55,972 bases of DNA from Candidatus Zixiibacteriota bacterium (GTDB lineage Bacteria > UBP14 > UBA6098 > JBKHBT01), in the NCBI GenBank assembly GCA_046542255.1, contig JBKHBT010000012.1, forward strand, positions 1 through 55,972. The letters are read 5' to 3'. The position numbers were made by a program, and so were the translations under genes. The notes below the pieces were generated by a model. It saw nothing but the letters and a program-made list of their open reading frames with translations. It was not told where the DNA came from and made no database searches. Shown piece after piece: positions 250 to 47,359 of this stretch (positions are counted from its first letter, which is position 1; every line of letters begins with the position of its first letter).

Positions 250-364
250 AAATACTCTTTTAAAGTCATAATAATATATATAAAATACATAATATATATA
301 CTCAAAAGGCTTTACTGATGTTTTAGCCTGAAAAGTATGACAATGCTCAGCAGCGCATTCTCTG
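250..364 (+). repeat. Copy A of a ~115-bp interspersed repeat family. It has a conserved left end (TACTCTTTTAAAGYCATA), a variable (TA)n-rich middle, and a conserved ~62-nt core (AAAAGGNTTTACTGATGTTTTAGCCTGAAAAGTATGACAATGC..AGCAGCGCATT.TCTG).
   Basis: Near-identical to 25282-25398 (about 4 mismatches across the 62-nt core) and to a degenerate copy at 18112-18228, all in the same orientation. The core contains a 9-bp inverted repeat (GACAATGCG/CGCATTGTC) that is perfect in copy B. Confidence 0.7.
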
Positions 365-16300: not shown

Positions 16301-17692
16301 ATGGAACTCAAGAGATTACTGGTTTTATTTTCTATCATTGCCATCCTCTTATTTGCTTTCGGTTGCCCGGATGATGATGATGATGATGACAATAATAGCA
16401 ATGATGATGACTCAGCCATGTACGAAGCATCTGGCGCAGTCGATTCTAATGGAGAATTATTGCTTGAAACAGAAAGTGGCGCAAAGCTTGCAATTCCTAG
16501 ATATGCTGTACCATTGACTATCGAAGAAGAAACAGGCACAATGGTCTTTTCTATAGAAAGAGATTTGTCTATAAGCCCTGTTTTGGATGAAGGGGCATCG
16601 AGTGCTTCTGATGTCTATCGCTTTGGGCCTGATGGTTTCGTTTTTGCTTCACCAGTTAGAGTAACAATACCTATCGATAATTTCGATGAGTCCAAGGAAT
16701 ATGAGATTTATCGTATTAATCAGACAACAGGTGAAGCCGAAGTATATTCATCATTTATCGATGAAGAAAATGCCACGATTTCAGCATATACATATCATCT
16801 TTCACCCTGGGCAATCTCAGAAAGAGAATACCGGGAACGCTCTGGTGGGGCCGTTCGCATTTCAAATACGAGTTCGACACATGCACTTCATGTCAGCGTA
16901 GCGGATTTCGTACCGGCCTATCCCATGGCAGATACAGTTACCTGTTCGCTCTATGATGCATATTTTCCGGCATTAGGCTCCGGTTCTTTTGTGGCCAGTA
17001 GCGGACTTTGGCATCTTCCACAGGGCACATATACCCTATGTTTCCGCATGTCGGAACAGGGCACTTTCATGAATCCACCAGGCGATCCTGTTCGCTGGTA
17101 TGAGCATGATGTTATAATTGATCAGCCCTGGTCAAGAACCAGTCCAAATATTTCGGATGAGTTCTCATATGGCCGTCCATCCGATGATGCTGTCGATGGC
17201 TTTTGTGATTGCCGTCCAGAACCGACTCCTTCAGCTGGAACCGGCGATGTTCAGGTAACATTGACATGGCATAATTCTGATCCGATAGACCTCGACCTCT
17301 GGATAATTGAACCAGATAGTACAGTATGTAATTATGCTACAACCCCAACTGCAAGCGGTGGCACTTTAGATAGAGACAATCTCTGTGGATCAACCTATAT
17401 CAATGGAAGGCCCGAGAATATCTTCTGGAGCTCCGCACCTGAAGGTACATATCGCGTTCAAGTTGACTGGTTTAGCGATTGTGGCAATGGCATGAGTTCA
17501 CAGGGCTATGATGTCAGAATTGTAAATGGTTCAGATGTCAGGACATTCTCAGGAACAATCCAGGCAGAAGAGACAATCGATATTGCAACATTTACCGTAT
17601 CAAGGCCTTCATTAGCAAAATCTTCGGGTAATTCGATATTCTATATCGGCCAGAAGACAGAAAGAATTGCCGAAAGGCCACCGAAATATTAA
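16301..17692 (+). CDS. Secreted or lipoprotein with a poly-Asp linker and a C-terminal proprotein-convertase P-domain-like beta-sandwich
   Basis: Signal peptide ending in FGC, followed by a D7NNSND3 tract. The C-terminus DLDLWIIEPDSTVC...GTYRVQVDW fits the P-domain/PPC pattern. Confidence 0.5.
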   Translation: MELKRLLVLFSIIAILLFAFGCPDDDDDDDNNSNDDDSAMYEASGAVDSNGELLLETESGAKLAIPRYAVPLTIEEETGTMVFSIERDLSISPVLDEGASSASDVYRFGPDGFVFASPVRVTIPIDNFDESKEYEIYRINQTTGEAEVYSSFIDEENATISAYTYHLSPWAISEREYRERSGGAVRISNTSSTHALHVSVADFVPAYPMADTVTCSLYDAYFPALGSGSFVASSGLWHLPQGTYTLCFRMSEQGTFMNPPGDPVRWYEHDVIIDQPWSRTSPNISDEFSYGRPSDDAVDGFCDCRPEPTPSAGTGDVQVTLTWHNSDPIDLDLWIIEPDSTVCNYATTPTASGGTLDRDNLCGSTYINGRPENIFWSSAPEGTYRVQVDWFSDCGNGMSSQGYDVRIVNGSDVRTFSGTIQAEETIDIATFTVSRPSLAKSSGNSIFYIGQKTERIAERPPKY

Positions 17693-17872: not shown

Positions 17873-18111
17873 ATATGGGGCTTTAGTCTGAAGTTCCACA
17901 GCCATTTCAAAAGCTACCCCAATCCACGCAAGGCCTTGCGCTGATTTGGGGGTTCACTTGGCATGACTACATTTCGATTTTCTCGATTAACTCCAGTGCT
18001 TTATGCTGCTTCTTATCTTGCTTGGTGACAGTTTCAAATGTCAGATTCTTGCTTTTTTCATGTATAATTTTGCAAGTGTTTTTCACAATTGTCGATAATG
18101 ATGAAAGAAGT

Positions 18112-18228
18112 GTTTATTTTTTATAGCCATATATTATAGAAAATATATATATTTTATAATATTTTTTGTAATGGTACCACTTATATTTTAGCCAAAAAGT
18201 ATGACAAGACGCAACAGCGCATTGCCTG
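18112..18228 (+). repeat. Copy C (degenerate) of the ~115-bp repeat family
   Basis: TTTATAGCCATATATTATAG...TTTTAGCCAAAAAGTATGACAAGACGCAACAGCGCATTGCCTG aligns with copies A and B. It lies in a convergent intergenic region. Confidence 0.6.
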
Positions 18229-18770
18229 AAGCTGTGATAGGTTTGTTTATCTTCTTCGGAATGCTTTGCTCTGCTGGATTTTTTGGCTTTCGCGCTTATT
18301 ACGGTTTTCAATCTCTGGAATGACCTGTGTTTGTAATAAATTATTTTCATCATAAGAGCTAAAAAGGTATTTCGTTTTTAAATTATCGACAATCGCCCAG
18401 GGCGTGGTCAAAAAGGGGTTATCGAAGATCAAAAAATTCGATTCTATTCGAATTCGAGAAAAAAATATTTGATTCTCCAAGAATCAAACTCATAATAAAT
18501 AATGTCCTATTGTATTCATTAACAACGACTTGCACAGCCCTGCAAAAAGGATAGAAATCGAAGTTCTTTCATGTAAAAATTATTTTGACTGGATAAAACA
18601 GAATCTCAAAATAAATCGTTTTTTAGGGATAAATAGAAATGCAATTGAAACACAGCTCTGGGTTGGAGTTTTCGCATGATCAATTTAAGCTCTTATGAAG
18701 GCAGAAAAGTGATGTGTTTGTTTTGATTCTTCGAGACAGTAGTGAAATGCATAAGAAAAACAATAATAAC

Positions 18771-21700
18771 CTATTTTTGCAAAACTTTCTCCACTACCTC
18801 ACGAAGACATTCCTTAGTATAAGGCTTTACAACTACTTCCTTGAATCCATAATCCGAATAATTTACCAAAACCTCGTCCTCAGCATATCCGCTGGAAACA
18901 ATAACATTTGCATTTTTATCGATTTTTAGTATTTCAGTTATTGTCTCTATTCCGCCTTTTCCACCTGGAATTGTAAGATCCATTATGATAATATCAAAAC
19001 CCTGGCCTTGTTGGTATGCCTTTTGAAAAATCTCGATAGCCTCTTCTCCTGATGCTGCAGTAGCAGTCTCGAAGCCCATGCTGACAAGACGATATTTGGT
19101 AACGCGTCGGACAATTTCTTTATCGTCCATTATCAATGCCCTTTTGCCTTCGAATTTTTTGTGGGGTTTTGGAGTTACTTTGGAATTCTTCTTCTTTTGT
19201 TCTTTTTCTATGGCAGGAATAAGCAGTTCGAAAATCGTACCTTTTCTCGCCGAAGACTTTACCTCGATATAACCCCCATGCTTTTTGATTATGGAATAAA
19301 CCGTTGTCAAGCCAAGCCCGCCTTCAGAATCTTTTGTGCTAAAATAAGGATCGAATATCTTATCGATATGGTTTTCGGAAATACCATGTCCCTCATCTGC
19401 AAATGTTATCTTGATATACTTCCCTGATTGAAATTGGGAGAAATTTTGAACATCGAGTTCAATATTTTCTAAATCTATGTATAAATTACCGCCATCTGGC
19501 ATGGCCTCTTTGGCATTTAATGTTAGATTAGAAAATACCTGCTGAATCTGGCCCTTATCGACATTCGCAATCCAAAGACCATCGGGACAATTATAAACAG
19601 GTTTCACATTGCTACCCGAAAGGTCAAATTGGACGATATCCTTCAGCACCTCGATCAAACGAATATCCTGTTTTACTGGAGCCCCCCCTTTCGAAAATGT
19701 TAGGAGTTGTTTGCTCAGACGCTTTGCCATATCCAATGATGCTTCTGAATCCTGAAGGAATTTCCATGCTGGATGCGATGGCTCGAGATTGTCTTTTACA
19801 ATCGAAAGATTACCAAAAAGGCCCATAAGAATATTATTAAAATCATGAGCGATACCACCTGCCAGAGTTCCGAGACTTTCTAATTTCTGAGTACGAATCC
19901 TTTGATCTTCGAGATTCTTTCTTTCGGTTATATCGCGAACCGTTGCCAATACTTTATCATCCTCGAAAGGAACCATTTGGGCATTGTAAATTTTTTCTTC
20001 TGAACCTTTTAAGAATTTATAGTCGAAAACCCTTTTGTTTTTAGTCTCGATAGTTTTTGCGATGTTTTCTAATATAATTTTCTGCTGTTCTTCTGAAAAA
20101 CCAGCATCCTTGATATTCTTGCCGATTATTTCTTCGGAAGATATAAGCAACTCTTCATCTATCTCGGCTTTGAAATCGATATATGTCCCATAGCTATCGA
20201 GAATAAACATCATCTCTGGCATCGCATCAAGAAGTGCTTGATTTCTATTGTAGGTGATTTCTAATTGCTTCTCCTGTTCCTTTTTTTCGGTAATGTCCCT
20301 AACCATTGAAAGCACCTGCCCTTCGCCACAAGGAACCATTCTTACTTCAAAGAAATGCTGCTTTTCATCTAATATCAGAGAATATTCATAATTTTGATTT
20401 TCCTTGGACTCCAGAGTTTTTATCACTTTCTTTTTGGTTAATTCAGATAGCTTTTTGGGCAAAACCTCATCAATTTTCTTACCAATGAACTCCTTCTCCG
20501 GAACAAGCAGCTTTTCGCTTTGCGGTGCGTGATTATCAATAAATCTGAATTGGTCATCTATTCTAAATAATAAATCGGGAATAGCGGCTAAAGTTGCACT
20601 ATATCTCTTTTCATTTTCACGGATCGCTTCTCGCATCTTGTATTCTTTTGTTACATCTCTAAAAACGAGTACGGTGCCTAAGATATTGCTATTTTTATCT
20701 TTTATGGGAGCTGCTGAATCTGCGATTTGATATTTCTTGCCACTTTTGGAAATAAGGGCAGTATGATTGGCAAGCCCAATAATTTTACCTGTTTGTAATA
20801 CTTTGCCTACCGGATTATCGACTTTTTTCAACGTATTGGAATCTACAATATTAAATACTTCTGTTAATCCTCTTCCAATTGCATCTTCAATCTTCCATTC
20901 AGTTAATTTTTGGGCGATAGGATTCATAGATTCAATATTACCCTTGGTGTCGGTAGTTATAACTGCATCGCCAATAGAATTGAGTGTCGTCTCCAATCGG
21001 TCTCGGCTTTCACTTAGCTGTAATTCGGTTTTTTTACGTTCGGTAATATCATCTATGATAGACAAAATCCTATTATGGCCATCCATCTTCAAGATTTCAG
21101 CAAAGAAAAGTCCGATTAAAATTCCACCGCTTTTCTTTTGTAATTCAACCTCGATACCATCTACTCTGCCCTTTTCTGCTAATTCATTTTTTATTTTTGT
21201 TCTGTTTTCTTGAGAAAGAATCTTCAAGTCAATGGATGTTTTGCCAATTATTTCGGCTCTTTTATAGCCAGTGGTTTTAATAAAATTACTATTAATTTCA
21301 ATATATCTATCTGTATCGATATCCTCGATACACATAAGTAACGGTCCATTATGAAACGCCCTGGAAAACAATTCTTCAGACCTTCTAAGCTCCTTTTCCA
21401 TTTCCTTTCTTTTGCTAATATCTTCAAAAACAGTAACGAAATGCGAGCTATCAGTTGAGAATGCAGAAATGGAAAAATATTTATTAAAAGGTTTGAAATA
21501 GACTTCAAATCGGTAAGGTAGTCCTGTTCGGGCAACTTTAGTGAAGATTTCAAGATAAGGCGGCCTGTCTGTTCCATAGACTTCGGTTGAAAATTTACCA
21601 ACTATATCTTCGGTTCTAAGCTCCAGAATATTTTCATACGCAAGGTTTACATCAGTGATACGATAATCCACTGGATTGCCAAGTTTATCATGGACAATCT

Positions 21701-22226
21701 CGTGGATTGCAACTCCTTCGTTCATATTTTCGTATAGTTTGCGATATTGCTTTTCGCTTTTTTTTATCTTTTCCCGCAAAAGGAAACTATTTGTGCTATC
21801 TCGAAAGACAATCACAACTCCTTTTATTTTTCCAAAACTATCGAATATCGGCGCGCCAGAATCTGAAATATGGTATTTATCACCATTTTTAGAAATTAAA
21901 ATGGCATGATTGGCCATATCGACTACAATACCTTTTTTTAATACTTTTTTTGCAGGAGAATCTATTCGTATGCCGTTTTTAGAATCCACAAGATGCAAAA
22001 TCTTGGATATTTTATGGCCAATAGCATCATCAGCATTCCACCCGGTGAGTCTTTCTGCTTCAGGATTGAGGCCGGTAATAATTTCTTTCGCATCACAAGA
22101 AATGACAGCATCACCCATGGAATTGAGAATCATTCGTAGATTATCGATCTTACTAGATAATGCTTTTATCTTCTCTTTGGCCTGTTGTAAATCGCTAATA
22201 TTCGAATCAATATGACCACTGTCCAT
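18771..22226 (-). CDS. Multi-PAS hybrid sensor histidine kinase with a C-terminal receiver domain
   Basis: Several PAS repeats, HisKA (LAGGIAHDFNNIL), HATPase (GxGLGL) and a receiver domain (RALIMDD...IIMDLTIPG). Confidence 0.85.
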   Translation of the reverse strand: MDSGHIDSNISDLQQAKEKIKALSSKIDNLRMILNSMGDAVISCDAKEIITGLNPEAERLTGWNADDAIGHKISKILHLVDSKNGIRIDSPAKKVLKKGIVVDMANHAILISKNGDKYHISDSGAPIFDSFGKIKGVVIVFRDSTNSFLLREKIKKSEKQYRKLYENMNEGVAIHEIVHDKLGNPVDYRITDVNLAYENILELRTEDIVGKFSTEVYGTDRPPYLEIFTKVARTGLPYRFEVYFKPFNKYFSISAFSTDSSHFVTVFEDISKRKEMEKELRRSEELFSRAFHNGPLLMCIEDIDTDRYIEINSNFIKTTGYKRAEIIGKTSIDLKILSQENRTKIKNELAEKGRVDGIEVELQKKSGGILIGLFFAEILKMDGHNRILSIIDDITERKKTELQLSESRDRLETTLNSIGDAVITTDTKGNIESMNPIAQKLTEWKIEDAIGRGLTEVFNIVDSNTLKKVDNPVGKVLQTGKIIGLANHTALISKSGKKYQIADSAAPIKDKNSNILGTVLVFRDVTKEYKMREAIRENEKRYSATLAAIPDLLFRIDDQFRFIDNHAPQSEKLLVPEKEFIGKKIDEVLPKKLSELTKKKVIKTLESKENQNYEYSLILDEKQHFFEVRMVPCGEGQVLSMVRDITEKKEQEKQLEITYNRNQALLDAMPEMMFILDSYGTYIDFKAEIDEELLISSEEIIGKNIKDAGFSEEQQKIILENIAKTIETKNKRVFDYKFLKGSEEKIYNAQMVPFEDDKVLATVRDITERKNLEDQRIRTQKLESLGTLAGGIAHDFNNILMGLFGNLSIVKDNLEPSHPAWKFLQDSEASLDMAKRLSKQLLTFSKGGAPVKQDIRLIEVLKDIVQFDLSGSNVKPVYNCPDGLWIANVDKGQIQQVFSNLTLNAKEAMPDGGNLYIDLENIELDVQNFSQFQSGKYIKITFADEGHGISENHIDKIFDPYFSTKDSEGGLGLTTVYSIIKKHGGYIEVKSSARKGTIFELLIPAIEKEQKKKNSKVTPKPHKKFEGKRALIMDDKEIVRRVTKYRLVSMGFETATAASGEEAIEIFQKAYQQGQGFDIIIMDLTIPGGKGGIETITEILKIDKNANVIVSSGYAEDEVLVNYSDYGFKEVVVKPYTKECLREVVEKVLQK

Positions 22227-22481
22227 GATTGTCCTAACTTAAGTCTAATTATAAGTTATAGGCTATACCATTTTTTCTTGACACTATTAAAACAATTTTT
22301 TGCTCTTCCTCATTTTAATTATACACAAATTTCCTAAAATGTCAATTTTTTTTACAAATTAATTCATGATAACAAAAATTTTAGAAGGTCTTTGGATACA
22401 ATTGCTCCATCAAAATTTTTCTTTCAATTTAATTCAGATTTTGTATTTTCTATAAAGGTATTTAATATTGAGGATAATTTA

Positions 22482-24905
22482 ATGGATTATAGCAAATTCA
22501 CAAAACAAGAGTTGATAGCGGAAATATTACACCTCGAAGAAAATGAAAAGAAATTGCTCTATCTAATCGAATCGATGACCTTTGGAATTGTCTTTCAAGA
22601 TAAGTCGGGAATAATCATATCCGCAAATAAAATGGCCGAAAAGATACTTGGCCTTTCACTCCAACAGATGCAAGGCCGCAAATCCACAGACCCCAGATGG
22701 AAATCGATACGTGAAGATGGCTCTTCTTTTCCCGGCGAAGAACATCCTGCAATGATTGCTCTGAAAACTGCCGAAAAAGTCCATAATGTCAAAATGGGAG
22801 TAAAAAAGCCTGGCAATCCAGAAATCACATGGATCAATATCAATGCTGTGCCATTATTTCGTGATGGAGAAAATGAGCCTTATCAAGTTTACTCTACTTT
22901 TGAAGATGTAACCCAAACAGTTAACTTTCAAAAAGGGCTACAAAAAAGCCAGAAGATTTTCGAGCTTTTTATGAAACATCTTCCCGGTGCGGTCTTCTTG
23001 AAAAACCAAACAGGTAAATTATTATTCGCAAATGCGACATTTGCAAAATTAATCGGTAAAAACCCAGAAGAAATAATCGGCAAAAATATTGATAGGATGC
23101 TGAATCCTAAAAATGTAGAAGCATTTGCCGAAGAGAATAGAAAAATTATTCTAAATCGCCAACCTATTGTATCCGAGCATGAGTTTACCTGGCAAGGCAA
23201 TACTTCTCATTTCTATAACTATAAATTCCCAATCGAATTAAAAACCGACTTTTTTGACATGCAGCAAAATATACTTATCGGCTCAATAAGTATCGATATA
23301 ACCGATCTAAAACAGATGCAGAACGCATTGGTCGAATCGGAAGAAAAATATAGAAACCTGGTAGAACACACTCCACAGGGCATTTGTACAATCGATGATA
23401 AAGGTATCTATATTTTCATGAATGAAGCAGCGGCAAAAGCCCTGGGCGGACTTCCTAATGATTTCATCGGCAAAAAGATGAATGAGATCTTCCCTGAAGA
23501 AATCGCGAATGAACAGCTATCAGAAATCCATAAGACAATTGAAAAGGGCAAATATCATCAGACAATAAAGCGCTCTTATGTCGCTGGTGAATATAGATGG
23601 TTCGAAGCTAGAATGCAGCCACTTCAAAATGATGAAGACCATTTTGACCGGGTCTTGCTTATCCTTACTGATGTAACAGAAATCAGAAAAGCCGAAAAAG
23701 AGAGAGAAGAATTACGCGCTAAATTGCAAAGAGCTCAAAAAATGGAAGCTCTGGGAACATTGGCTGGTGGAGTTGCCCATGATCTTAATAATATTCTCTC
23801 GGGAATCGTTGGTTACCCAGAAATCCTAATGATGGATATCGAAGATCTAAAAAATAAAACTAGTAACTACCTCTTTTTAGAAAAATTAGATGACATTCAC
23901 AAGACTATTGATATGATTAATAATTCAGGGCAAAGAGCTGCAAATGTGGTTCATGATCTTCTTACTCTTGCAAGAAGAGGAGTAAATATCAGCAAACCGG
24001 TTAATATCAATGATATAGTAAAATATTTCATCCATTCACCCGAATATGCAAAAATCCTAAAAGAAAATCCTGGAATCGAAGTAGAAACTCGACTGAATGA
24101 GAACACTCAAAATATCATTGGTTCGAAAGCGCATCTAAATAAAACATTATTGAACCTTGTCTTAAATGCCTTCGAGGCAATGCATAAGACTGGAACGATA
24201 AAAATTGAAACGAGAAATCAAACAATAATCGGCAACAAAAATGGATATGAGATAATACCCGAAGGTAGTTATTCTTTATTGATTGTTAAAGATGAAGGCA
24301 CTGGTATCAAAGATGAAGATTTGGAAAGAATTTTCGAACCTTTTTATACTCGCAAAATAATGGGCAGAAGTGGCACAGGGTTAGGAATGGCAATTGTATG
24401 GGGTACTGTTAAGGACCATAATGGATACATAGATATCGATACAAAAATAGGTTATGGCAGCACTTTCACAATATATCTACCTGTATCAGATCAAGACATA
24501 AAAAATGACAATGTACCAGAAAGTAAAGAAAATCTATATGGAAAAGGCCAAAAAATTCTCATAGTCGATGATATCGAAGCCCAAAGGAAACTGGCGAGTG
24601 ATATTTTATCGAGATTTGGTTATGAGACCATTACTGCAAGTAGCGGTGAAGAAGCGATTGAAAAATCTAAAAAACAGAAATTTGACCTCGTCATTCTCGA
24701 TATGATAATGAATCCTGGAATAGATGGCCTCGATACATATAAAATACTTCTCGAAATAAATCCTGAACAAAAAATCATTATTGCAAGTGGTTATTCTGAA
24801 AACGACAGAGTGAAAAAAGCCCTTGAATTAGGAGCGAGTAAATATATCAGAAAACCATATAGCATAATGCAATTGGTCAAAGATGTCAAAGAATCAATGT
24901 TTTGA
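22482..24905 (+). CDS. Multi-PAS hybrid sensor histidine kinase with a C-terminal receiver domain
   Basis: PAS repeats, HisKA (LAGGVAHDLNNIL), HATPase and a receiver domain (KILIVDD...LVILDMIMNPG). GAGGA RBS lies 8 nt before the ATG at 22482. The ORF is open from 22392. Confidence 0.85.
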   Translation: MDYSKFTKQELIAEILHLEENEKKLLYLIESMTFGIVFQDKSGIIISANKMAEKILGLSLQQMQGRKSTDPRWKSIREDGSSFPGEEHPAMIALKTAEKVHNVKMGVKKPGNPEITWININAVPLFRDGENEPYQVYSTFEDVTQTVNFQKGLQKSQKIFELFMKHLPGAVFLKNQTGKLLFANATFAKLIGKNPEEIIGKNIDRMLNPKNVEAFAEENRKIILNRQPIVSEHEFTWQGNTSHFYNYKFPIELKTDFFDMQQNILIGSISIDITDLKQMQNALVESEEKYRNLVEHTPQGICTIDDKGIYIFMNEAAAKALGGLPNDFIGKKMNEIFPEEIANEQLSEIHKTIEKGKYHQTIKRSYVAGEYRWFEARMQPLQNDEDHFDRVLLILTDVTEIRKAEKEREELRAKLQRAQKMEALGTLAGGVAHDLNNILSGIVGYPEILMMDIEDLKNKTSNYLFLEKLDDIHKTIDMINNSGQRAANVVHDLLTLARRGVNISKPVNINDIVKYFIHSPEYAKILKENPGIEVETRLNENTQNIIGSKAHLNKTLLNLVLNAFEAMHKTGTIKIETRNQTIIGNKNGYEIIPEGSYSLLIVKDEGTGIKDEDLERIFEPFYTRKIMGRSGTGLGMAIVWGTVKDHNGYIDIDTKIGYGSTFTIYLPVSDQDIKNDNVPESKENLYGKGQKILIVDDIEAQRKLASDILSRFGYETITASSGEEAIEKSKKQKFDLVILDMIMNPGIDGLDTYKILLEINPEQKIIIASGYSENDRVKKALELGASKYIRKPYSIMQLVKDVKESMF

Positions 24906-25000: not shown

Positions 25001-25309
25001 ATGAAAAAACTTCTACCGCTCATTTTGTTAATACCAATAGTCTTTAGCCAAACAGAAATCAACTATAATCCAGCACACTACTTTGTCGGCAATATTTATA
25101 CAAACCGCACTGTCGAAGAAGTCAAATTTTCGATAGGTTCGACCGGAGGCCCACAGAAATGGGATTTCACTACTTTTCCTGATGGTGATGAATCTGATTT
25201 CGAGGTAGTCGAATACTCTTCTTCTCTACCCGAAGTCGCCAGTTGCGCTATGACTCCTAATTATGTGATTTACAATCACACAATTACTCTTTTAAAGCCA
25301 TATATATAG
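25001..25309 (+). CDS. N-terminal fragment (signal peptide plus ~80 aa) of a T9SS cargo protein. Its last codons and stop lie inside repeat copy B.
   Basis: Signal peptide MKKLLPLILLIPIVFSQ. The ORF terminates at TAG within the repeat's (TA)n segment. Confidence 0.45.
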   Translation: MKKLLPLILLIPIVFSQTEINYNPAHYFVGNIYTNRTVEEVKFSIGSTGGPQKWDFTTFPDGDESDFEVVEYSSSLPEVASCAMTPNYVIYNHTITLLKPYI

Positions 25310-25398
25310 CATATATATAATACTTAATATATTTAGCAAAAGGATTTACTGATGTTTTAGCCTGAAAAGTATGACAATGCGGAGCAGCGCATTGTCTG
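25282..25398 (+). repeat. Copy B of the ~115-bp repeat family, inserted between the two halves of a T9SS cargo gene
   Basis: Best-conserved copy, with a perfect 9-bp hairpin GACAATGCG-GAGCAG-CGCATTGTC. Confidence 0.7.
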
Positions 25399-26174
25399 AT
25401 ACTTCTGAAATCGAAGGATATGGATATATGCATCAAAACTCTTCCCGAGTTATTGGACTCGGGCTTTGGGGAGAAATGACTGACGATGGTTCGACATATT
25501 CACTAACAGCCTTTAATGAAGACTACAGCCCTTCGAATACATTCCCGATGAATTATGGAGACAGCTGGATCGAAACTTCTTATGGAACAGGCGAAATAAA
25601 TTATATCGTTACCATGGACTATGAATACTGGGACACAAGCTATTACGAAATCGATGCATGGGGACAGATTATTTTACCGATAGGCACTTTCGATGCATTA
25701 CGAGTAAAAAAGCGTCATCATAGGCATCAGGTTTCTGACCATTTTCTTTTTGGATTCGATAAATTCGAAAGAGAATTTGGTTGGCAATGGTACTGCTATG
25801 AAGTCGGCTTTGCTGGTTCATGGATGGGCCCAAAAGACACCCTGGATAATCTACCCGATTCGACATTTACGATAGGCAAGCTTAGCTATCAGATTGCAAA
25901 TTCAATGCTCTCCATTTCTGAAAAAGAAGCAAAGCCGGCGAAAGTTGAGATTTTAACATATCCTAATCCATTTAATTCATCGATTTCGATCCTTACGGAT
26001 GATAATGCAGATATATCGATTTTCGATTTGAATGGCAAGTGTATATTGCGAAATAGCTTGCCTTCAGGGGTTTTTAGATGGCAACCAAAAGGCGATTTAA
26101 CTTCCGGGATTTATATTATCGAGATAGAATCCCATAATGGCCGTATCCAAAAGCAAGTATTCTATATCGGATAG
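25371..26174 (+). CDS. C-terminal fragment of a secreted protein with a T9SS C-terminal sorting domain. It has no signal peptide of its own.
   Basis: C-terminus LTYPNPFNSSISI...DISIFDLNGKCI...GIYIIEIE. The annotated ATG (ATGACAATG) lies inside the repeat core. Confidence 0.5.
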   Translation: MTMRSSALSDTSEIEGYGYMHQNSSRVIGLGLWGEMTDDGSTYSLTAFNEDYSPSNTFPMNYGDSWIETSYGTGEINYIVTMDYEYWDTSYYEIDAWGQIILPIGTFDALRVKKRHHRHQVSDHFLFGFDKFEREFGWQWYCYEVGFAGSWMGPKDTLDNLPDSTFTIGKLSYQIANSMLSISEKEAKPAKVEILTYPNPFNSSISILTDDNADISIFDLNGKCILRNSLPSGVFRWQPKGDLTSGIYIIEIESHNGRIQKQVFYIG

Positions 26175-28474: not shown

Positions 28475-29401
28475 ATGAAGAATTTAATGCTATTTACAAT
28501 ATTAATTGGTATTTTTAACCTAATAGGTGCAGATTTGCCTGATAATGCCGGTACAAGCAGTTTCCCATTTCTAAAGAATATCCAAAGTACAAGAAGCGAG
28601 GCTATGGGGTCGGCATATTGCGGACTGCCGGCCGAGAATCCCTATGCTCTTGATAATCCTGCTCTATTGCCTTTTGCAAATAGAAATGCAGGCTTTTCAT
28701 ATAAAAACTTATGGGGTTTCGCAAATGGTGCTACGGCCTATTATATGCAGAGCAAAGAGGAAACCAATGGATTTGGTTTTTACGCGCATTATATCGGTTA
28801 TGGCAAAGTTAAAGAAACTGATTTTGAGGGTAATGTGCTGGGCGAGCTATCGCCTTCCGATATGGTTCTTGCCGGAGGTTACGGCCATAGGTTCACTAAA
28901 AGCTTCTCTGTGGGGGGAATTGGAAAGCTCATCTATGAAAATGCTGGGGATTTGAATGCTTCCGGGATTGCCCTTGATGCCGGACTATTGTATCGCTTTA
29001 TTAGAGCAAGAGCACAATTGGGTTTTATTGTCAAGAATCTGGGGATGCAGTTATCAGCTTTTGGCGATGAGACATACCCACTCCCTATGCAAATAGGTTT
29101 TGGCGGGAGTTCGAGAATACCCGGATTGCCGCTTCTTTTGTCCGCACAGGGTGATTACCTTGCTGATGACGGCTTTATGATTGGTGCCGGTGCAGAAATA
29201 TTAGCACTTGGGCCAATAAAGCCCCGAATCGGCTATAGAATGATGCCCAAAATCGATTCCGACCTCGCTGAAAACGAAAACAAAAAAGGACTTTCGGCCG
29301 GATTCGGCATCGAAGTGGATAGCTTCAAATTCGACTATGCACTTCGGCATTACGGAGTATTAGGACTGACGCATAACCTGGCTCTGGAATATCGATTCTA
29401 A
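28475..29401 (+). CDS. Putative outer-membrane beta-barrel protein (PorP/PorQ/UPF0164-like)
   Basis: Signal peptide, alternating amphipathic Gly/aromatic-rich strands, and a C-terminal YRF (terminal Phe). Family assignment is uncertain. Confidence 0.4.
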   Translation: MKNLMLFTILIGIFNLIGADLPDNAGTSSFPFLKNIQSTRSEAMGSAYCGLPAENPYALDNPALLPFANRNAGFSYKNLWGFANGATAYYMQSKEETNGFGFYAHYIGYGKVKETDFEGNVLGELSPSDMVLAGGYGHRFTKSFSVGGIGKLIYENAGDLNASGIALDAGLLYRFIRARAQLGFIVKNLGMQLSAFGDETYPLPMQIGFGGSSRIPGLPLLLSAQGDYLADDGFMIGAGAEILALGPIKPRIGYRMMPKIDSDLAENENKKGLSAGFGIEVDSFKFDYALRHYGVLGLTHNLALEYRF

Positions 29402-29555
29402 TTACATCGATTCTGTTTTATCGGAATGTAAACTTTTCTATTTGCATAATATTAAGAAACTTATAGCTCTAGAACCTTTGGCCTATAATGGTGATATTCA
29501 GTAACTATATAAACAAGGCTACCGTTCTCGATACATAGCTCCCAGCCTAATACAC

Positions 29556-29667
29556 CGCTACAAAGCTCTACCCCCCACTGCCCTCGCTACAAAGCTCTGC
29601 CCCCCACTGCCCTCGCTACAAAGCTCTGCTCCCCACTGCCCTCGCTACAAAGCTCTGCTTTGTAGCG
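29556..29667. repeat. Tandem array of about 3.9 copies of a GC-rich 29-bp unit (CGCTACAAAGCTCTGCCCCCCACTGCCCT). The last partial unit forms the hairpin CGCTACAAAG-CTCTG-CTTTGTAGCG.
   Basis: Units at 29556-29584, 29585-29613 and 29614-29642, with a partial unit at 29643-29667. Only 2-3 variable positions. No spacers, so this is not a CRISPR array. Confidence 0.8.
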
Positions 29668-29908
29668 CAAGCTTTCCGAAGCTCCGCTTCTATTCTTTAC
29701 TAATACCATAAAGAAGCAGAGCTTCTCAAGGAGGATAAAAATAAAATTTATTTACTTTACATAAATTTTAACACTGAATCTGGGTAATTAAGGCTAAAGC
29801 TCAAATCTGACAATCTCTTAAATCCATTCTCAATCTTATGAAAGTGTTTTGGTAGATATCTTAATATGTCTTGACGAAAGCCGGTGGCGATTTTATTTTA
29901 CAGATGCT

Positions 29909-30649
29909 ATGAAAACGATGATAATAAAAATCTTGATTGTTTCTTTGATTTGTTTTTCTCTATTTGGCGAGAACAATATCGACAAGACGCTTCGAACGGC
30001 TGATCAGATGATTCGAGTCGGCGATTATGAAAAGGCTGAAGACCAGCTTCGAGTAGCACTTCGCAATAATCCCGAAAATGGTGAGATTCTCTGGCGACTT
30101 GGCAAAGCACTCAATCGCAAAGCTATGCGCCTTTCTGGCATGAAAAGACATGATACATTCGAAGAGGCCAGCCAGATTCTGGCAAAAGCCATCAAATATG
30201 ATAGAAAATCTCCAGAACCACATGTCGAGATGGCGAGGACTCTCGGATATATGGGACTTTTCAAACCAGATTGGGACAATTATAATCTTGCAGGCAGGAT
30301 TTCCGAAGAACTCGATTATGCCATAAAACAGGACGCTGAATATGCTGATGCATACTTTGTCTATGGACTATGGAATCGCTTTGTCTGCAAAAGATCTTTA
30401 CTTGTCAGAATGCCTTATGACCTTGGCGAAGCCTGCGATGAATTAGCTCTCGAAAATCTACAAAAAGCAGTTGAATATGATGATGAAAATGCAGAATATA
30501 TGCTGGAGCTTGGAAAACAGTATTTGTATATGGAGCGTTTTGATGAAGCCAGAGATATTTTTAAAAAAACAACCGAATTTAAGAGCAATCTTTTCACAAA
30601 AAGATATATCAAACAGGCAGAAGAACAACTCGAAACTATGGACAAATAG
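29909..30649 (+). CDS. Secreted TPR-like repeat protein
   Basis: Signal peptide MKTMIIKILIVSLICFSLFG and helical repeat content. The ORF is open from 29849. Confidence 0.5.
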   Translation: MKTMIIKILIVSLICFSLFGENNIDKTLRTADQMIRVGDYEKAEDQLRVALRNNPENGEILWRLGKALNRKAMRLSGMKRHDTFEEASQILAKAIKYDRKSPEPHVEMARTLGYMGLFKPDWDNYNLAGRISEELDYAIKQDAEYADAYFVYGLWNRFVCKRSLLVRMPYDLGEACDELALENLQKAVEYDDENAEYMLELGKQYLYMERFDEARDIFKKTTEFKSNLFTKRYIKQAEEQLETMDK

Positions 30650-41140: not shown

Positions 41141-44050
41141 ATGACAAATAGCATTTTTGCCGGACGCGAAAAAGAATTATCTATTCTAGACAATGTTAAT
41201 AAGAAGCTACAGCTTGGAAAACCGATACCTATTTATACTTTCTTTGGTAGGATCGGCCTGGGTAAAACAACCCTTCTTAATAAAATAATCGAACAATCTT
41301 CGAGCGTATTTCCGGGTTATTTCATAAATTCCATTTTTATGCCCAAGACACCTATCGAATTCATCCATAGAATTTGTTTAGAAATAACTAAAAATTTCGG
41401 TGCAGAATTCCCAAGAACCGGAATGATTCTTGCTAGAATTAAACTTATGATCGAATTAAATGAATTTGAAATCGATGGTACCTTCAATTTCAGAAATAAT
41501 ACTCTCGCCCGAGATGAAGATGACATATATCCTCAGGTTAAATATTTTTTCAAAGAACTTTTCGGCAAAGACTTCTACCAGTTATTCCTTGGACTCGAGT
41601 TGCGCGAGCTAATTGGAATTTTGCCCATAGCTTTTGGAAAAGATATCGACTCGATGATTTCGGATAATTCCCTTCGCGGTTTCATTCTGGCCATCGATGA
41701 TATCGATGATCTTAAACTACTACCCTGCTCCTGGCTTTTGAAAATAAAACAGCAAAGCCACAGAATACTTCTTCTTTTTACTTCCGAAAACCCTATCGAA
41801 CACCAAAAGATAGAAAATATTCAGGCACGGAGCTTTACAAAAAGTGACTTCTTTACCTTTCTTAGAAAAAAGGGAATTAATATCGAACCTGTTTCTCAAG
41901 ATATTGATTTCGAAAGTGCTATGCTTCGAGTTCCATTCTGGACAAATCTCTTTGCAGAAAATCTGCTTAAAAATATATTCCCAAAAGACGGACAGGTAAT
42001 TTCATACGATACAATCGGTGAAAATTTTTGGCAGCAATTGCCCATTCAATACAAAAACCTACTGGGATTGCTTTTTATAATTCCGAAATACAAAATTTCC
42101 AGGCTCGACACAATCATCGATGATTTCGATATTAATGTGATAGATAATGTCATAGTAAAACACCGAAATGAAATCGCTCTTTCAAAATCTTTTGTTGGCT
42201 TTATTGGCAAAAAGCTAAGAGAAGAATCAGAAATTCGGTCTTTTATCAAACAAATTGCAAATAGCAACATTTTCGACAATCCAGCTCTCGATGCCATAAA
42301 TGACAAAGATACAGCTATTTACAATTTAATTAGCGATATCCTAGTAGATATCTATCTCGTTAAGACCGACAATGCTGATAAAATCGCCAATAATTTGGAC
42401 AATATGCTTCGGATATTTCCAATGGTACCTTTCTGGGAATATTTATTACATAGATATCGCGAGATTTACTTTGATTCTGAATTATTACATGAAAATCAGA
42501 AAATAGAAAAGAAAAACCAGGACGGCATCTATCATTTTCTGAATCTTGGAATCTCGCAGATAAATATTTATCTCGACCTGGGCGAATTCAGGGCTGCTAA
42601 GGATGAACTCGATGAAATGGCAGAATATCTTGGTAATATATCTTCCAGTACTCTTTCCGGCATGAATCGCCGTTTTCTACGATGCCTTCTGACATATTCT
42701 GCAATTTCAATATACCGGAATCTTGGCGCAACCGAAAAGATGCTGGCCGAATACGATTCGCTCAAGTTATACTGGCATCGATTATCCGAAGTTTTGCCGA
42801 GGTCATTGCAGGATATTATTTTGATACTCGAAATTCATACCGACCTTGAAAAACTCAAAGACCTAATAATCCTAAGAAGTGAAGGCCTAATGGATGGTTT
42901 CGCAAATATCAACAGGAAACTTCAGAAACTTCGAAAGGGTAAAATGCATTCATATCTTGAATGGTCGATTAATTATCAGAAATCGATATTTCTAAGTTCT
43001 CATCAATCGACCCTCCGTGCACTATCGACTATCCAGCTTTCACGAAAACAGATAATCCAATTTCTAAAAAATATCGAAATCTCTGATAGAAAGAAAACCT
43101 TATTACTGGTTAAATATGGTACAGACTTCGCGGATATGATCAGTGCTTTGAGCGATGCTAATGCTTTCAATAAATATATAAATGATGTAATCAAAAGCCT
43201 AAAATCGATAAAAGAATCGATCTTAGAAAATGACCCTGAGCTCCTTTTCACTTTGGGGCGAGCTTACTTTGTTTCTGGTAATTTCCTCTTTTACCAGAAT
43301 AAATATGTCGAATCTTATTCGCAACTATCGCTGGCGACCGGACTTTATCAAAGGTATTTGGATTTTCGCAAAGACGATAGAAAAATCGAGTCTTTCCTTT
43401 CGGATGCTTATTATTTATGTGGTAGAGCTTCTGAGAAACTTCGCAATTACAAAAATGCACAGGAGCTATTCAAGCTTGCAGAAGATTATACAAGAATGCT
43501 TCTAAAAAGGAAAGAAAATGAAGAATTTCTGCTTACCAGATTAGGAATGATTATTTTCCGAAAATCCAGAGCCTATGAGATCCTTGGATTCGAATCCAAA
43601 AGCAGGGATTCACTGGAAAAGGGAATCAGGATATATGAGCTTCTTTTGAAATCCGGCGCATCCGAACCGCAAAGAGTACTATTCAATCTTGGCCAGGCCC
43701 AGCTTTTCAAGGCCACAACAGTTAAAATGTCCAATCGAGAAGCTCTCGATGTCCTTGAAAAGTCTCTGGAAAATCTTGAAAAATCCGCACGCCTTGGTTT
43801 TGAGAAAAGCTCATCTCTTATCGAGCATATTGGTTCTGTCGCTCTTTCAATATACAATAATGCTATCGATGGCAATGATTATAATGATGCATTTAAGGCG
43901 ACTCTTCTTGCTGGAAAGACTGCGCTTCTTACAGATCATACCAAATTGAAAAACAATACGATTGAATTAATTCTGCAATGGGAGCAATTTCCATTAAATC
44001 AGGAGTATTACCAAATGCTCAAAGACCTTGAAATAAATCTAAAAGACTAA
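41141..44050 (+). CDS. STAND-type P-loop NTPase (AAA_16-like) with a C-terminal TPR-like repeat array
   Basis: FAGREKELSILDNV...YTFFGRIGLGKTTLL (AAA_16 pattern) and Walker B-like LAIDDIDDL. The ~600-aa helical repeat region has TPR-like periodicity. No N-terminal effector domain and no HTH. Confidence 0.5.
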   Translation: MTNSIFAGREKELSILDNVNKKLQLGKPIPIYTFFGRIGLGKTTLLNKIIEQSSSVFPGYFINSIFMPKTPIEFIHRICLEITKNFGAEFPRTGMILARIKLMIELNEFEIDGTFNFRNNTLARDEDDIYPQVKYFFKELFGKDFYQLFLGLELRELIGILPIAFGKDIDSMISDNSLRGFILAIDDIDDLKLLPCSWLLKIKQQSHRILLLFTSENPIEHQKIENIQARSFTKSDFFTFLRKKGINIEPVSQDIDFESAMLRVPFWTNLFAENLLKNIFPKDGQVISYDTIGENFWQQLPIQYKNLLGLLFIIPKYKISRLDTIIDDFDINVIDNVIVKHRNEIALSKSFVGFIGKKLREESEIRSFIKQIANSNIFDNPALDAINDKDTAIYNLISDILVDIYLVKTDNADKIANNLDNMLRIFPMVPFWEYLLHRYREIYFDSELLHENQKIEKKNQDGIYHFLNLGISQINIYLDLGEFRAAKDELDEMAEYLGNISSSTLSGMNRRFLRCLLTYSAISIYRNLGATEKMLAEYDSLKLYWHRLSEVLPRSLQDIILILEIHTDLEKLKDLIILRSEGLMDGFANINRKLQKLRKGKMHSYLEWSINYQKSIFLSSHQSTLRALSTIQLSRKQIIQFLKNIEISDRKKTLLLVKYGTDFADMISALSDANAFNKYINDVIKSLKSIKESILENDPELLFTLGRAYFVSGNFLFYQNKYVESYSQLSLATGLYQRYLDFRKDDRKIESFLSDAYYLCGRASEKLRNYKNAQELFKLAEDYTRMLLKRKENEEFLLTRLGMIIFRKSRAYEILGFESKSRDSLEKGIRIYELLLKSGASEPQRVLFNLGQAQLFKATTVKMSNREALDVLEKSLENLEKSARLGFEKSSSLIEHIGSVALSIYNNAIDGNDYNDAFKATLLAGKTALLTDHTKLKNNTIELILQWEQFPLNQEYYQMLKDLEINLKD

Positions 44051-44267: not shown

Positions 44268-44573
44268 ATGGCACAGAAAATGCGAATAAAACTAAGGGCT
44301 TATGACAATGTTATCCTGGACAAATCGGTTCAGGAAATAATTATGACTGCGAAGAAGGCAGGAGCAATCATCTCTGGTCCGGTTCCCCTTCCTACAAAGA
44401 AGCGTGTTTACACGATTCTTCGTTCGCCACATGTCAACAAGCGTTCGAGAGAACAATTCGAGATTCGAATTCATCGTCGCTTGATCGACATACACGAGGC
44501 GGACAGCCGGATTGTGGATGGAATGATGAAGATAGATCTTCCTGCTGGAGTAGATATTGAGTTATTACTATAA
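44268..44573 (+). CDS. rpsJ: 30S ribosomal protein S10
   Basis: Conserved S10 sequence (RIKLRAYD...[11 protein letters not shown]...RSPH). Confidence 0.95.
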
Positions 44574-44598
44574 TAAGCTCTAATTAGAAGAGGTACAA

Positions 44599-45225
44599 AT
44601 GTTAGGACTATTTGCGAAAAAGGTTGGAATGACAACCATCTTTGGGGAAGATGGCGCTGCCATACCAGTAACCGTCATGCGTGCAGGGCCCTGTAAGGTC
44701 GTTCAGGTAAAAACACCTGACCTCGACAAATACAGTGCTCTTCAACTTGGTTTCGAACCTACCAACAAAAGGGTAACGAAGCCAAAACTTGGACATTTCA
44801 AGAAAGCACGCGTCCAGCCGCACAAAAAAATCGGAGAATTCCGTGTTCCCCCTGATATCGCAGGCAAATACAAAGCCGGCGATACAATAGATGTTTCTAT
44901 TTTTGAAGCAGGAAACAAAGTCTCCTGCACAGGAACTACCAAAGGAAAAGGCTTTCAGGGTACAGTTAGACGCTGGAAATTTGGCGGCGGACCTAAGACT
45001 CATGGCCAAAAGGATAAATTCCGTGCCCCCGGCTCAATTGGTGCAAGCGCTACACCTTCAAAAGTGATAAAAGGCATGAAGATGGCCGGCCAGATGGGCA
45101 ATGCCAGAAGAACAATTAAAGGCCTTAGTGTTGTTAAAGTCGACCAGGAAAACAATCTGCTTCTGGTTAAAGGTTCTGTACCCGGCGCAAAAGGCGGATT
45201 TATTAAAATTGTACAGGAGCGATGA
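44599..45225 (+). CDS. rplC: 50S ribosomal protein L3
   Basis: GLFAKKVGMTTIF... is an L3 signature, and operon position fits. Confidence 0.95.
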   Translation: MLGLFAKKVGMTTIFGEDGAAIPVTVMRAGPCKVVQVKTPDLDKYSALQLGFEPTNKRVTKPKLGHFKKARVQPHKKIGEFRVPPDIAGKYKAGDTIDVSIFEAGNKVSCTGTTKGKGFQGTVRRWKFGGGPKTHGQKDKFRAPGSIGASATPSKVIKGMKMAGQMGNARRTIKGLSVVKVDQENNLLLVKGSVPGAKGGFIKIVQER

Positions 45226-45860
45226 AGATGTTAAAAGCAGCACTTTATAATTCAAATGGTGAAAATGCTGGCGATATTGAGCTTCCAGTTGATATTTTTG
45301 GAATAGAACCCAATGAAGCTGTTGTTCATCAATACGTTAAGGCATATTTAGCAAATCAAAGGCAGGGTTCCGCCAAAGTAAAAACAAGGTCAGAAGTTTC
45401 TGGCGGCGGTAGAAAACCTTGGCGTCAAAAAGGCACGGGTAGGGCAAGAGTCGGTACGATTAGGTCTCCATTATGGAGACACGGTGGTGTCATATTCGGG
45501 CCATCTCCAAGATCTTATCGAAGCAGATTACCCAAAAAAATGAAAAGACTCGCATTGCTTTCGGTTCTATCCGACAGAGCAAGTGAAGAAAAAATCGATA
45601 TCATAGAATCGCCAAAAATTGATAAACCTTCTACAAGAGAAGTGAAATCATTAATCAACAAAGTTGAAACCGGCGATGATAAGAAAATCCTTATGGTTAC
45701 TGCCAAATCTGATAAGAATATCTATCTTTCAGCAAGAAATATCAAAGGATTAGAGATCAGTCATATGGGTGAGCTAAATACTTACCAGATATTGAAAGCT
45801 GATAGAGTTATCTTTACCTCGGATGCACTAAATCTTATGAAGGAGCTATGGACATCATGA
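45222..45860 (+). CDS. rplD: 50S ribosomal protein L4
   Basis: [16 protein letters not shown] motif. Confidence 0.95.
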
Positions 45861-46147
45861 AGAACCCAAGAGATATTATTATAGCGCCGCTTCTTACAGA
45901 AAAAAGCACCTTGAAAAGAGAAGCTGAGAATGTATATTCTTTCAAAGTTGCTAGAGGCGCGAATAAAAGGCAGATCAAGGAAGCTTTCGAGGAACTTTTC
46001 AAGGTCGAAGTAATTTCTGTAAATACAATGAATAACTTAGGCAAGATGCGAAGAATGGGCAGATTCACAGGAAGACGCCCTTCATGGAAAAAAGCAAATG
46101 TCAAACTCGCTCCAGGTGGAACGATACCGATATTTGAAGGCATTTAA
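45848..46147 (+). CDS. rplW: 50S ribosomal protein L23
   Basis: [11 protein letters not shown]...FKV motif and operon position. Confidence 0.9.
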
Positions 46148-46170
46148 TTAGGAAATAAAGGAAATTTAAA

Positions 46171-47001: not shown

Positions 47002-47002
47002 T

Positions 47003-47278: not shown

Positions 47279-47359
47279 TATTTTATAAGCCTAAAGCTTC
47301 TTAAGTGCTTGTTAAAACAAGATTTATAAAGCGCTTTTATTTAGGAGGAATTAATAAAT

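What the first reader, a model, noticed from the sequence alone, without database searches (positions are those of the whole stretch)
250..364. Three-copy ~115-bp interspersed repeat family carrying a conserved hairpin and an ATG
Copies at 250-364, 18112-18228 and 25282-25398 share a conserved left end (TACTCTTTTAAAGYCATA), an AT-rich (TA)n middle of variable length, and a ~62-nt core that ends in a 9-bp inverted repeat (GACAATGCG...CGCATTGTC). All copies have the same orientation, and no terminal inverted repeats or transposase are visible. The core contains ATGACAATG, which opens a different hydrophobic small ORF in each copy (53 aa in A, 40 aa in C, and the split T9SS gene in B). The three genomic contexts differ: upstream of a gene, a convergent intergenic region, and inside a gene. 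That argues against a gene-specific leader. It favours either a mobile MITE-like or REP-like element, or a small promoter-plus-sRNA cassette.
Basis: seen in the sequence. Interest (0 to 1): 0.6.

Follow-up and report, generated by a model that had tools for sequence, protein, structure and literature searches.

The report
Small mobile insert splitting a gene
A roughly 107-base non-coding repeat occurs three times in this uncultured Zixibacteria genome piece, and one copy has landed inside a secreted-protein gene and split it, so it is a small parasitic mobile element of an ordinary kind but with unusual ends.

Summary
The repeat family is real. There are three same-strand copies: A 255-363, B 18117-18227 and C 25287-25397. 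A and C are 94% identical over the 62-nt core; B is an older, degraded copy.

Copy C sits inside a T9SS cargo gene. Six intact homologues (39-49% identity) read HT(V)TDTSE straight across the point where the window reads HTIT|element|DTSE. The net insertion is therefore 109 nt, laid out as TTA-CT-[107 nt]-CT-G.

There are no terminal inverted repeats. The only duplication is the CT dinucleotide. Stop codons occur in all frames, and no transposase lies in the 56 kb.

Independent k=31 Logan contigs from another sample stop exactly 30 nt inside both borders of copy C. This means at least one further near-identical copy exists elsewhere in that sample.

The element is absent from the closest available relatives, from GTDB representative genomes, from JGI metagenomes and from IMG/VR. 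No Rfam family matches, and hairpin differences between copies break pairs rather than compensate.

Best reading: a lineage-restricted, non-autonomous, site-specific insertion element moved in trans. The enzyme is unresolved. An IS110/IS1111-type CT-core recombinase fits best, and IS200/IS605 fits second best. Interest is modest.

The parts
255..363 (+). Copy A: CT + 105-nt element + CT. It lies in a >540-nt intergenic region, 180 nt upstream of the DUF1015 gene (543-1784). Flanks are ATA-CT ... CT-G.
   Evidence: An identical copy is present in GCA_964582205.1 (L002). Logan contig L003 starts at 317, 30 nt before the first A-specific base at 347.
18117..18227 (+). Copy B: a degraded copy (TT + 107 nt + CT) in the convergent intergenic region between 16301-17692 (+) and 18771-22226 (-). 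It is about 70% identical to A and C.
25287..25397 (+). Copy C: CT + 107-nt element + CT. The net insertion is 109 nt (25289-25397, or equivalently 25287-25395) inside a T9SS cargo gene. This copy is closest to the family consensus.
   Evidence: Excising 109 nt restores a 354-aa ORF that scores 447.6 bits against a profile of six intact homologues.
25289..25303 (+). Conserved left end CTTTTAAAGCCATAT. The same block is at 257-271 in A.
   Evidence: Alignments.
25301..25319 (+). AT-only palindrome (ATATATAT-AGC-ATATATAT) in the variable (TA)n middle. The equivalent regions are about 275-300 in A and 18134-18170 in B.
   Evidence: (folds).
25373..25396 (+). 3' hairpin GACAATGCG-GAGCAG-CGCATTGTC. 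It ends at the element's right border and is degraded in A (339-362) and B.
25371..25373 (+). Outward-facing ATG inside the element. At copy C it happens to be in frame with the 3' part of the split gene and opens the 267-aa ORF that gene callers report.
25001..25288 (+). Native 5' part of the split T9SS cargo gene, with the signal peptide MKKLLPLILLIPIVFSQ. The ORF as it now stands runs on into the element to the TAG at 25307-25309.
25398..26174 (+). Native 3' part of the split T9SS cargo gene, with a Por_Secre_tail C-terminal sorting domain.

Best explanation
This is a lineage-restricted, non-autonomous insertion element of about 107 nt. It codes for no protein, has no terminal inverted repeats and has stop codons in all frames.

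It integrates in one orientation at short sites resembling TTA-CT-G. After integration the CT dinucleotide is found at both junctions. This layout is expected when a site-specific recombinase exchanges strands at a 2-nt core shared by the element and the target.

Shown:
- At copy C the element interrupted a T9SS cargo gene between codons ACT and GAT.
- The 5' fragment now ends at a TAG inside the element.
- The 3' fragment can only start at the element's own ATG. It then lacks a signal peptide, so the gene is almost certainly inactivated.

Inferred:
- The element is moved in trans by an enzyme encoded elsewhere in the genome.
- The best fit is an IS110/IS1111-type DEDD (bridge RNA or seekRNA-guided) recombinase, because those elements lack inverted repeats, target specific sites and carry one copy of a conserved CT core at each junction.
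- A and B are older insertions that are decaying in intergenic DNA.
For: - The repeat is real and far above chance.
- phmmer found intact 337-385-aa homologues whose residues 84-102 align with residue 8-9 of the 267-aa fragment.
- The alignment shows HTVTDTSE in the closest homologue, against HTIT|DTSE across the window junction.
- Excision models scored against a profile of six homologues: 109 nt gives 447.6 bits, 115 nt gives 436.3, 127 nt gives 425.7, and 111 nt gives a premature stop.
- Flanks are TTA-CT/CT-G (C), ATA-CT/CT-G (A) and TTA-TT/CT-G (B).
- The insertion is present in two NCBI assemblies and is consistent with Logan contigs from SRR11308339.
- Logan contigs (k=31, all 31-mers distinct by construction, PMC12424806) end at 25313 and restart at 25369. 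That is exactly 30 nt inside 25284 and 25398. A and B differ from C in those 30-mers, so a further C-like copy must exist.
- The element is absent from 57 kb of the closest relatives, including the region upstream of their DUF1015 orthologue.
- IS621 has a conserved CT core in both target and donor, and a 22-bp donor suffices when the RNA is supplied in trans (PMC11208160).
- Mini-IS constructs move when the transposase and the non-coding region (NCR) that encodes the seekRNA are supplied in trans. Apparent short duplications belong to the IS (PMC11187229).
- A solo small module of an IS110 element is known to spread by itself (ssr9 of ISPpu9, PMC12288879).
Against: - Only three copies could be read. 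No further copy was recovered from any collection.
- No empty-site allele of the same locus was found. The intact homologue in the nearest relative is not syntenic.
- No recombinase or transposase is in the window, and no autonomous partner is known.
- The target similarity beyond TTA-CT-G is weak: A and C share 5 of the 7 bases to the left.
- A modelled RE-CT-LE circle junction (element's right end, CT, left end) has no sigma-70-like hybrid promoter.
- 107 nt is short for a bridge RNA.
- TTAC immediately to the left of copy C also fits an IS608-like target.
Confidence: 0.72

Rival explanations
1. The element is a miniature derivative of an IS200/IS605-family element (a PATE-like element). A Y1 HUH transposase would move it as single-stranded DNA, and it would insert 3' of TTAC on the lagging-strand template.
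For: - There are no inverted repeats and no true target duplication.
- All copies have one orientation, on the strand that carries most genes and a positive cumulative GC skew.
From my own memory of IS608, its left cleavage site is TTAC and its guide is AAAG.
- Both ends have hairpins.
Against: - A has ATAC and B has TTAT instead of TTAC.
- All copies also share TG on the right side, which this mechanism does not specify.
- The right hairpin would end at the cleavage point, with no 3' linker or cleavage tetranucleotide.
- The left (AT-only) and right (GC-rich) hairpins are unlike each other, although one transposase should bind both.
- No Y1 transposase or TnpB is in the window.
Confidence: 0.13
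2. The element is a functional promoter-plus-leader or small-RNA cassette that the host keeps for regulation, rather than a selfish mobile element.
For: - Sigma-70-like hexamers occur in the left end and (TA)n region of A and B.
- The hairpin followed by ATACTTTTCA on the minus strand of C scores as terminator-like.
- Copy A lies upstream of a gene in the same orientation.
Against: - Copy C destroys a gene.
- No promoter-like site was called in C.
- No Rfam family matches, even at E<=10.
- Differences between copies break the hairpin, and the covariation term is +3.44.
- Fold z-scores are weak for A and B.
- The element is absent upstream of the orthologous gene in relatives.
Confidence: 0.06
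3. The repeat is the shared 5' end of a family of small hydrophobic (type I toxin-like) peptide genes.
For: The element's ATG opens a 52-aa ORF in A and a 40-aa ORF in B, and both are hydrophobic.
Against: - Similarity between copies ends 9 codons after the ATG.
- All A/C differences in those codons are non-synonymous.
- The hydrophobicity follows from T-rich flanks.
- In C the same ATG reads into a T9SS gene.
- Gene callers did not call the small ORFs.
- A search with element-encoded peptides found nothing.
Confidence: 0.03
4. The repeat is an assembly artefact or a chimeric join at a repeat in a metagenome-assembled genome.
For: The source is a MAG. Assemblies do break near or inside the copies.
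Against: - The same arrangement is present in two NCBI assemblies and matches independent Logan contigs from both flanks.
- The two gene halves joined by copy C are consecutive parts of one protein family.
Confidence: 0.02

Closest known systems
IS110/IS1111-family insertion sequences and their small mobilisable modules (IS621 donor core; mini-ISEc11; solo ssr9 module of ISPpu9)
   Same: There are no terminal inverted repeats and no real target duplication. One copy of a conserved core dinucleotide (CT in IS621) sits at each junction. Insertion is site- and orientation-specific. Short end sequences are enough for movement when the enzyme and RNA act in trans (PMC11208160, PMC11187229, PMC12288879).
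   Different: No DEDD recombinase or longer parent element has been seen. The shared target is only about 6 nt. No hybrid promoter was modelled across the circle junction. At 107 nt it is shorter than described bridge RNAs. Nothing shows that it encodes a guide.
IS200/IS605-derived miniature elements (PATEs) and IS608
   Same: It is small, lacks inverted repeats and duplication, has hairpins near both ends, has one orientation, and has TTAC to the left of copy C.
   Different: The two hairpins are unrelated. The right hairpin abuts the end. The right flank TG is also conserved. TTAC is not conserved in A or B.
Classical bacterial MITEs (e.g. Correia elements, RUP, Nezha)
   Same: It is a small non-coding multicopy insertion that can land in or next to genes and carries outward-reading signals.
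   Different: Classical MITEs are defined by terminal inverted repeats and a fixed-length target duplication. This element has neither, beyond the CT.
REP/BIME elements and Rickettsia palindromic elements
   Same: It contains a GC-richer palindrome in an AT-rich genome, and one copy is inside a coding region.
   Different: REPs are 20-40-nt palindromes outside genes. RPEs insert in frame and are translated. This unit is 107 nt, has stops in all frames and truncates the gene.

Membership tests
Classical MITE | Small, non-coding, multicopy | tested here: met
   The element is 105-107 nt with stops in all six frames. There are three copies in the window, and at least one more is inferred from the k=31 contig breaks.
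Classical MITE | Terminal inverted repeats | tested here: not met
   The left end is CTCTTTTAAAGCC. The reverse complement of the right end is AGACAATGCGC. They show no similarity. The repeat finder reports no inverted pair at the ends.
Classical MITE | Fixed-length target-site duplication of variable sequence | tested here: not met
   Only the invariant CT flanks the element. It is the same dinucleotide at every copy, so it is a core or target feature, not a variable duplication.
IS110/IS1111-derived mini element | No inverted repeats; a conserved core dinucleotide present once at each junction | tested here: met
   CT...CT in A and C, and TT...CT in the degraded copy B. CT is the conserved core of IS621.
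IS110/IS1111-derived mini element | Conserved target sequence on both sides of the core | tested here: inconclusive
   The sites are TTA-CT-G, ATA-CT-G and TTA-TT-G. A and C share 5 of the 7 bases to the left. The Logan branch points show that the other copies also share TTACT...CTG. There are too few sites for a logo.
IS110/IS1111-derived mini element | DEDD recombinase and a parent IS with the same ends in the genome | not testable with these tools
   None is in the window. The rest of the MAG could not be fetched, because both collection scans returned only chance hits.
IS110/IS1111-derived mini element | Hybrid promoter across the circle junction, or an encoded guide RNA matching target and donor | tested here: inconclusive
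   No junction-spanning sigma-70-like site was found, but this is not universal in the family. The interior TTACTGAT equals the empty site of C (P about 0.03), with nothing comparable for A or B.
IS200/IS605-derived element (PATE) | Insertion 3' of a fixed tetra- or pentanucleotide, with nothing specified on the 3' side | tested here: inconclusive
   The left flank is TTAC in C, ATAC in A and TTAT in B. The right-flank TG is shared by all copies, which this mechanism does not predict.
IS200/IS605-derived element (PATE) | Similar subterminal hairpins at the left and right ends | tested here: not met
   The left hairpin is an AT-only palindrome. The right hairpin is GACAATGCG/CGCATTGTC and ends at the border.
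REP/BIME | A 20-40-nt imperfect palindrome as the whole unit, outside genes, with a conserved 5' tetranucleotide | tested here: not met
   The unit is 107 nt, and the palindrome makes up only its last 24 nt. Copy C is intragenic.
Known RNA family (Rfam 15) | Score at or above a family's gathering threshold | tested here: not met
   At gathering thresholds only two tRNAs were found in the window. At E<=10 the best hit on the element was 15 bits against a threshold of 51.
Type I toxin small ORF family | Homologous small hydrophobic ORF conserved across copies | tested here: not met
   Homology stops 9 codons after the ATG, and the ORF bodies are unrelated flank sequence.

The most novel reading that the evidence does not exclude
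The 107-nt unit may be a self-propagating guide-RNA module: a stand-alone bridge RNA or seekRNA-like gene carrying its own recombination ends. It would hijack an IS110/IS1111-type recombinase encoded elsewhere. Its interior TTTACTGATG segment would read the TTACTG(AT) target, and its 3' hairpin arm would read its own right end. That would make it the smallest RNA-guided mobile element yet described, and the first from Zixibacteria.
Probability: 0.06. Interest if true: 0.75.

Novelty: new member of a known kind. Interest (0 to 1): 0.33.

Why it matters
The finding adds a previously unrecorded small mobile element from an uncultured phylum, Zixibacteria. It shows the element inactivating a surface or secreted protein gene.

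It is also a reminder that elements lacking inverted repeats are invisible to standard MITE finders, which look for inverted repeats and duplications.

If the CT-core layout does reflect an IS110-type recombinase, the family would be a natural example of a minimal donor moved in trans. That is of some interest for bridge-recombinase biology.

In practice, the element explains the contig breaks in assemblies of this organism. It also explains the two adjacent "genes" (102 aa and 267 aa), which should be annotated as one disrupted gene.

Tried and rejected
**Searches for more copies**
- The genome-contig scan and the metagenome-contig scan with AAGTATGACAAN7CAGCGCATT returned only chance hits in unrelated GC-richer DNA.
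- The viral-contig scan with TTTTAGCCN{1,2}AAAAGTATGACAA returned 0 hits.
- A protein search with concatenated six-frame element peptides, meant to find other disrupted genes, found nothing at E<=10.

**Searches for intact homologues and relatives**
- A word-indexed search with a fused N+C protein found no intact homologue. The exhaustive phmmer search did.
- The listing of cluster members on ten homologues, to find paralogues from the same MAG, showed none that could be assigned to it.
- A look-up of the last gene in the window, to read past the window end, gave nothing because the Logan contig stops inside the window.
- nhmmer against the relatives L011, L012 and L018 found no copy.

**Models of the insertion that were rejected**
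- Joining the flanks of A did not reveal a disrupted gene.
- A TACT...TACT 4-bp duplication model, a 115-nt no-duplication model and a 127-nt model were rejected in favour of the 109-nt model on the homologue profile scores.
- A 111-nt IS608-style excision (25288-25398) gives a premature stop.
- A hybrid promoter across a modelled circle junction was not found.

**Other readings that were rejected**
- Translational bypass and intron readings were considered and rejected. The element is too small and has the wrong ends for group I or II introns, and nothing supports bypass.

Full report
**Observation**

- The repeat finder groups them. A and C are 94% identical over 62 nt.
- The pattern AAGTATGACAAN7CAGCGCATT occurs three times, against 0.02 expected from shuffles.
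- An nhmmer profile run without filters finds no fourth copy in the window.
- All three copies lie on the + strand.
- B is much more diverged, at about 70% identity with indels.

- B, not C, is the copy in the convergent intergenic region. It opens the 40-aa ORF 18201-18323.
- C, not B, is the copy inside the gene.
- The left-end motif and ATGACAATG hold for A and C only.
- The 9-bp inverted repeat is perfect only in C. A has 7 of 9 pairs and B has 6 of 9.

**Source**

The window is a chromosomal contig of a Candidatus Zixiibacteriota MAG (name given for P0003). It carries a ribosomal protein operon, der, plsY, pdxA/pdxJ and an encapsulin pair.

Near-identical DNA is found in GCA_964582205.1. 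Two of its contigs overlap at window 17903-17957. It is also found in Logan contigs of run SRR11308339.

No transposase or recombinase is encoded anywhere in the 56 kb.

**Copy C is an insertion in a gene**

- ORF 25001-25309 (102 aa) starts with a Sec signal peptide and ends at a TAG inside the element.
- ORF 25371-26174 (267 aa) starts at the element's ATG and ends in a Por_Secre_tail T9SS sorting domain.
- Neither half could work alone.

A word-indexed search found no intact relative. An exhaustive phmmer search did. It returned proteins of 337-385 aa at 39-49% identity, whose residues 84-102 align with residue 8-9 of the 267-aa fragment. The closest, P0123, comes from the same MAG (GCA_015657875.1) that holds the closest DUF1015 orthologue, but it is not syntenic.

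In the multiple alignment the homologues read ...TPNYIVYYH-T-V-T-D-T-S-E-x-EGWG... The window reads ...TPNYVIYNH-T-I-T, then the element, then D-T-S-E-I-EGYG.

I built a profile from the six homologues and scored alternative excisions.

| Excision removed | Result |
|---|---|
| 109 nt (25289-25397) | 447.6 bits; restores a 354-aa ORF |
| 115 nt | 436.3 bits |
| 127 nt | 425.7 bits |
| 111 nt | premature stop |

The native sequence was therefore ...ACA ATT ACT|GAT ACT TCT... The dinucleotide CT occurs at both junctions, so the layout is TTA-CT-[107 nt]-CT-G. The same layout holds in A (ATA-CT-[105]-CT-G) and, degraded, in B (TTA-TT-[107]-CT-G).

**More copies exist**

Logan contigs are built with k=31, and every 31-mer occurs only once per accession (PMC12424806).
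- The Logan contig covering the left flank of C ends at window 25313.
- The contig covering the right flank starts at 25369.
- Their terminal 31-mers therefore start at 25283 and end at 25399.

So the graph branches exactly at the borders of the block TTACT...CTG. A and B differ from C within those terminal 30-mers and cannot cause the branches. At least one more copy, near-identical to C at both ends and also flanked by TTACT and G, must be present in that sample.

If an empty-site allele were present, the left contig would end at 25288 instead. None is indicated.

The contig on the right of A starts at 317, exactly 30 nt before the first A-specific base.

**Distribution**

- The core pattern is absent from 185,579 GTDB representative genomes and from JGI metagenomes. 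All hits there were chance matches in unrelated DNA.
- It is also absent from IMG/VR.
- It is absent from 57 kb around related genes in the closest available relatives. There the DUF1015 gene has short upstream spacers without the element.

It is therefore neither a conserved leader nor a widespread family.

**What it is not**

- No Rfam family matches.
- RNAalifold gives a positive (penalising) covariation term. Every difference in the 3' hairpin breaks a pair.
- Fold z-scores are weak for A and B.
- The nine codons after the ATG differ between A and C only by non-synonymous changes, and the rest of each small ORF is unrelated flank sequence. The small-peptide reading therefore fails.
- There are no terminal inverted repeats and no variable target duplication, so it is not a classical MITE.
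- It is not a REP, and it is not an in-frame RPE-type insert, because it has stops in all frames.

**Mechanism**

Shown:
- The element is a discrete 107-nt unit found at unrelated sites in one orientation.
- A short common target and the same CT lie on both sides.
- One insertion truncates a gene.

Inferred: movement in trans by an enzyme encoded elsewhere.

The layout fits recombination at a 2-nt core.
- In IS621 (IS110 family) a CT core is conserved in both target and donor, and a 22-bp donor is enough when the RNA acts in trans (PMC11208160).
- Mini-IS constructs of IS1111/IS110 elements move when the transposase and non-coding region are supplied in trans. Apparent short duplications belong to the IS (PMC11187229).
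- A solo small module of ISPpu9 spreads by itself (PMC12288879).

Against membership in that family:
- No DEDD gene or parent IS could be examined.
- The shared target is short.
- No hybrid promoter appears in a modelled circle junction.

The IS200/IS605 alternative is attractive for several reasons. TTAC lies to the left of C, AAAG lies before the left palindrome, there are hairpins at both ends, and all copies share one orientation on the gene-rich, G-skewed strand.

It fits worse for three reasons. TG on the right is also shared, the right hairpin abuts the end, and the two hairpins are unlike each other.

One oddity remains. The interior TTACTGAT equals the reconstructed empty site of C (P about 0.03), but A and B show nothing comparable. 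This leaves a small chance that the unit carries its own guide.

**Verdict**

This is a new, lineage-restricted member of the broad class of small non-autonomous bacterial insertion elements. It is of the less common kind without inverted repeats. It has disrupted a T9SS cargo gene. Interest is modest. It would rise only if the CT-core and guide-like features were confirmed on the full genome.

Noticed in passing
window 29556-29658 (family D1 spans 29527-29687): A 29-nt tandem repeat with 3.6 copies at 97% identity. The unit is CGCTACAAAGCTCTGCCCCCCACTGCCCT. It is GC-rich in a 38% GC genome and lies in the spacer between ORFs 28475-29401 and 29849-30649.
   Followed up: no
window 17917-17952: A GC-rich imperfect palindrome, CCCCAATCCACGCAAGG/CCTTGCGCTGATTTGGGG, downstream of gene 16301-17692. 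Assembly GCA_964582205.1 is split here into two contigs that overlap by 55 nt (17903-17957). It is a single copy in the window.
   Followed up: partly
L003:1-4 versus window 317-320: The Logan contig of SRR11308339 reads GATA where the window and GCA_964582205.1 read GATG inside copy A. This is either a strain difference or a k-mer path borrowed from another copy.
   Followed up: partly
window 25346-25353 and 312-319: The interior of copies C and A contains TTACTGAT, identical to the reconstructed empty target of copy C (ATTACT|GATAC). P is about 0.03 against random window sites. There is no equivalent match for the targets of A or B.
   Followed up: partly
window 52148-53325: An encapsulin pair: an EncFtn-like cargo protein (52148-52507) followed by a Linocin_M18 shell protein (52531-53325). 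It lies between ftsEX-like genes and pdxJ.
   Followed up: no
window 44268-50112: The S10-type ribosomal protein operon (S10, L3, L4, L23, L2, S19, L22, S3, L16, L29) is followed directly by pdxA. The usual S17/L14/L24 continuation is missing.
   Followed up: no
window 18771-22226 (-) and 22392-24905 (+): Two divergently transcribed, PAS-rich hybrid histidine kinases share an 80-nt inverted stretch at 74% complementarity (19812-19891 / 23734-23813). These are most simply paralogous domains.
   Followed up: no
window 41141-44050: A 969-aa ORF next to a MerR-family regulator. It has no Pfam domain apart from a sub-threshold ATPase_2 hit at its N-terminus.
   Followed up: no
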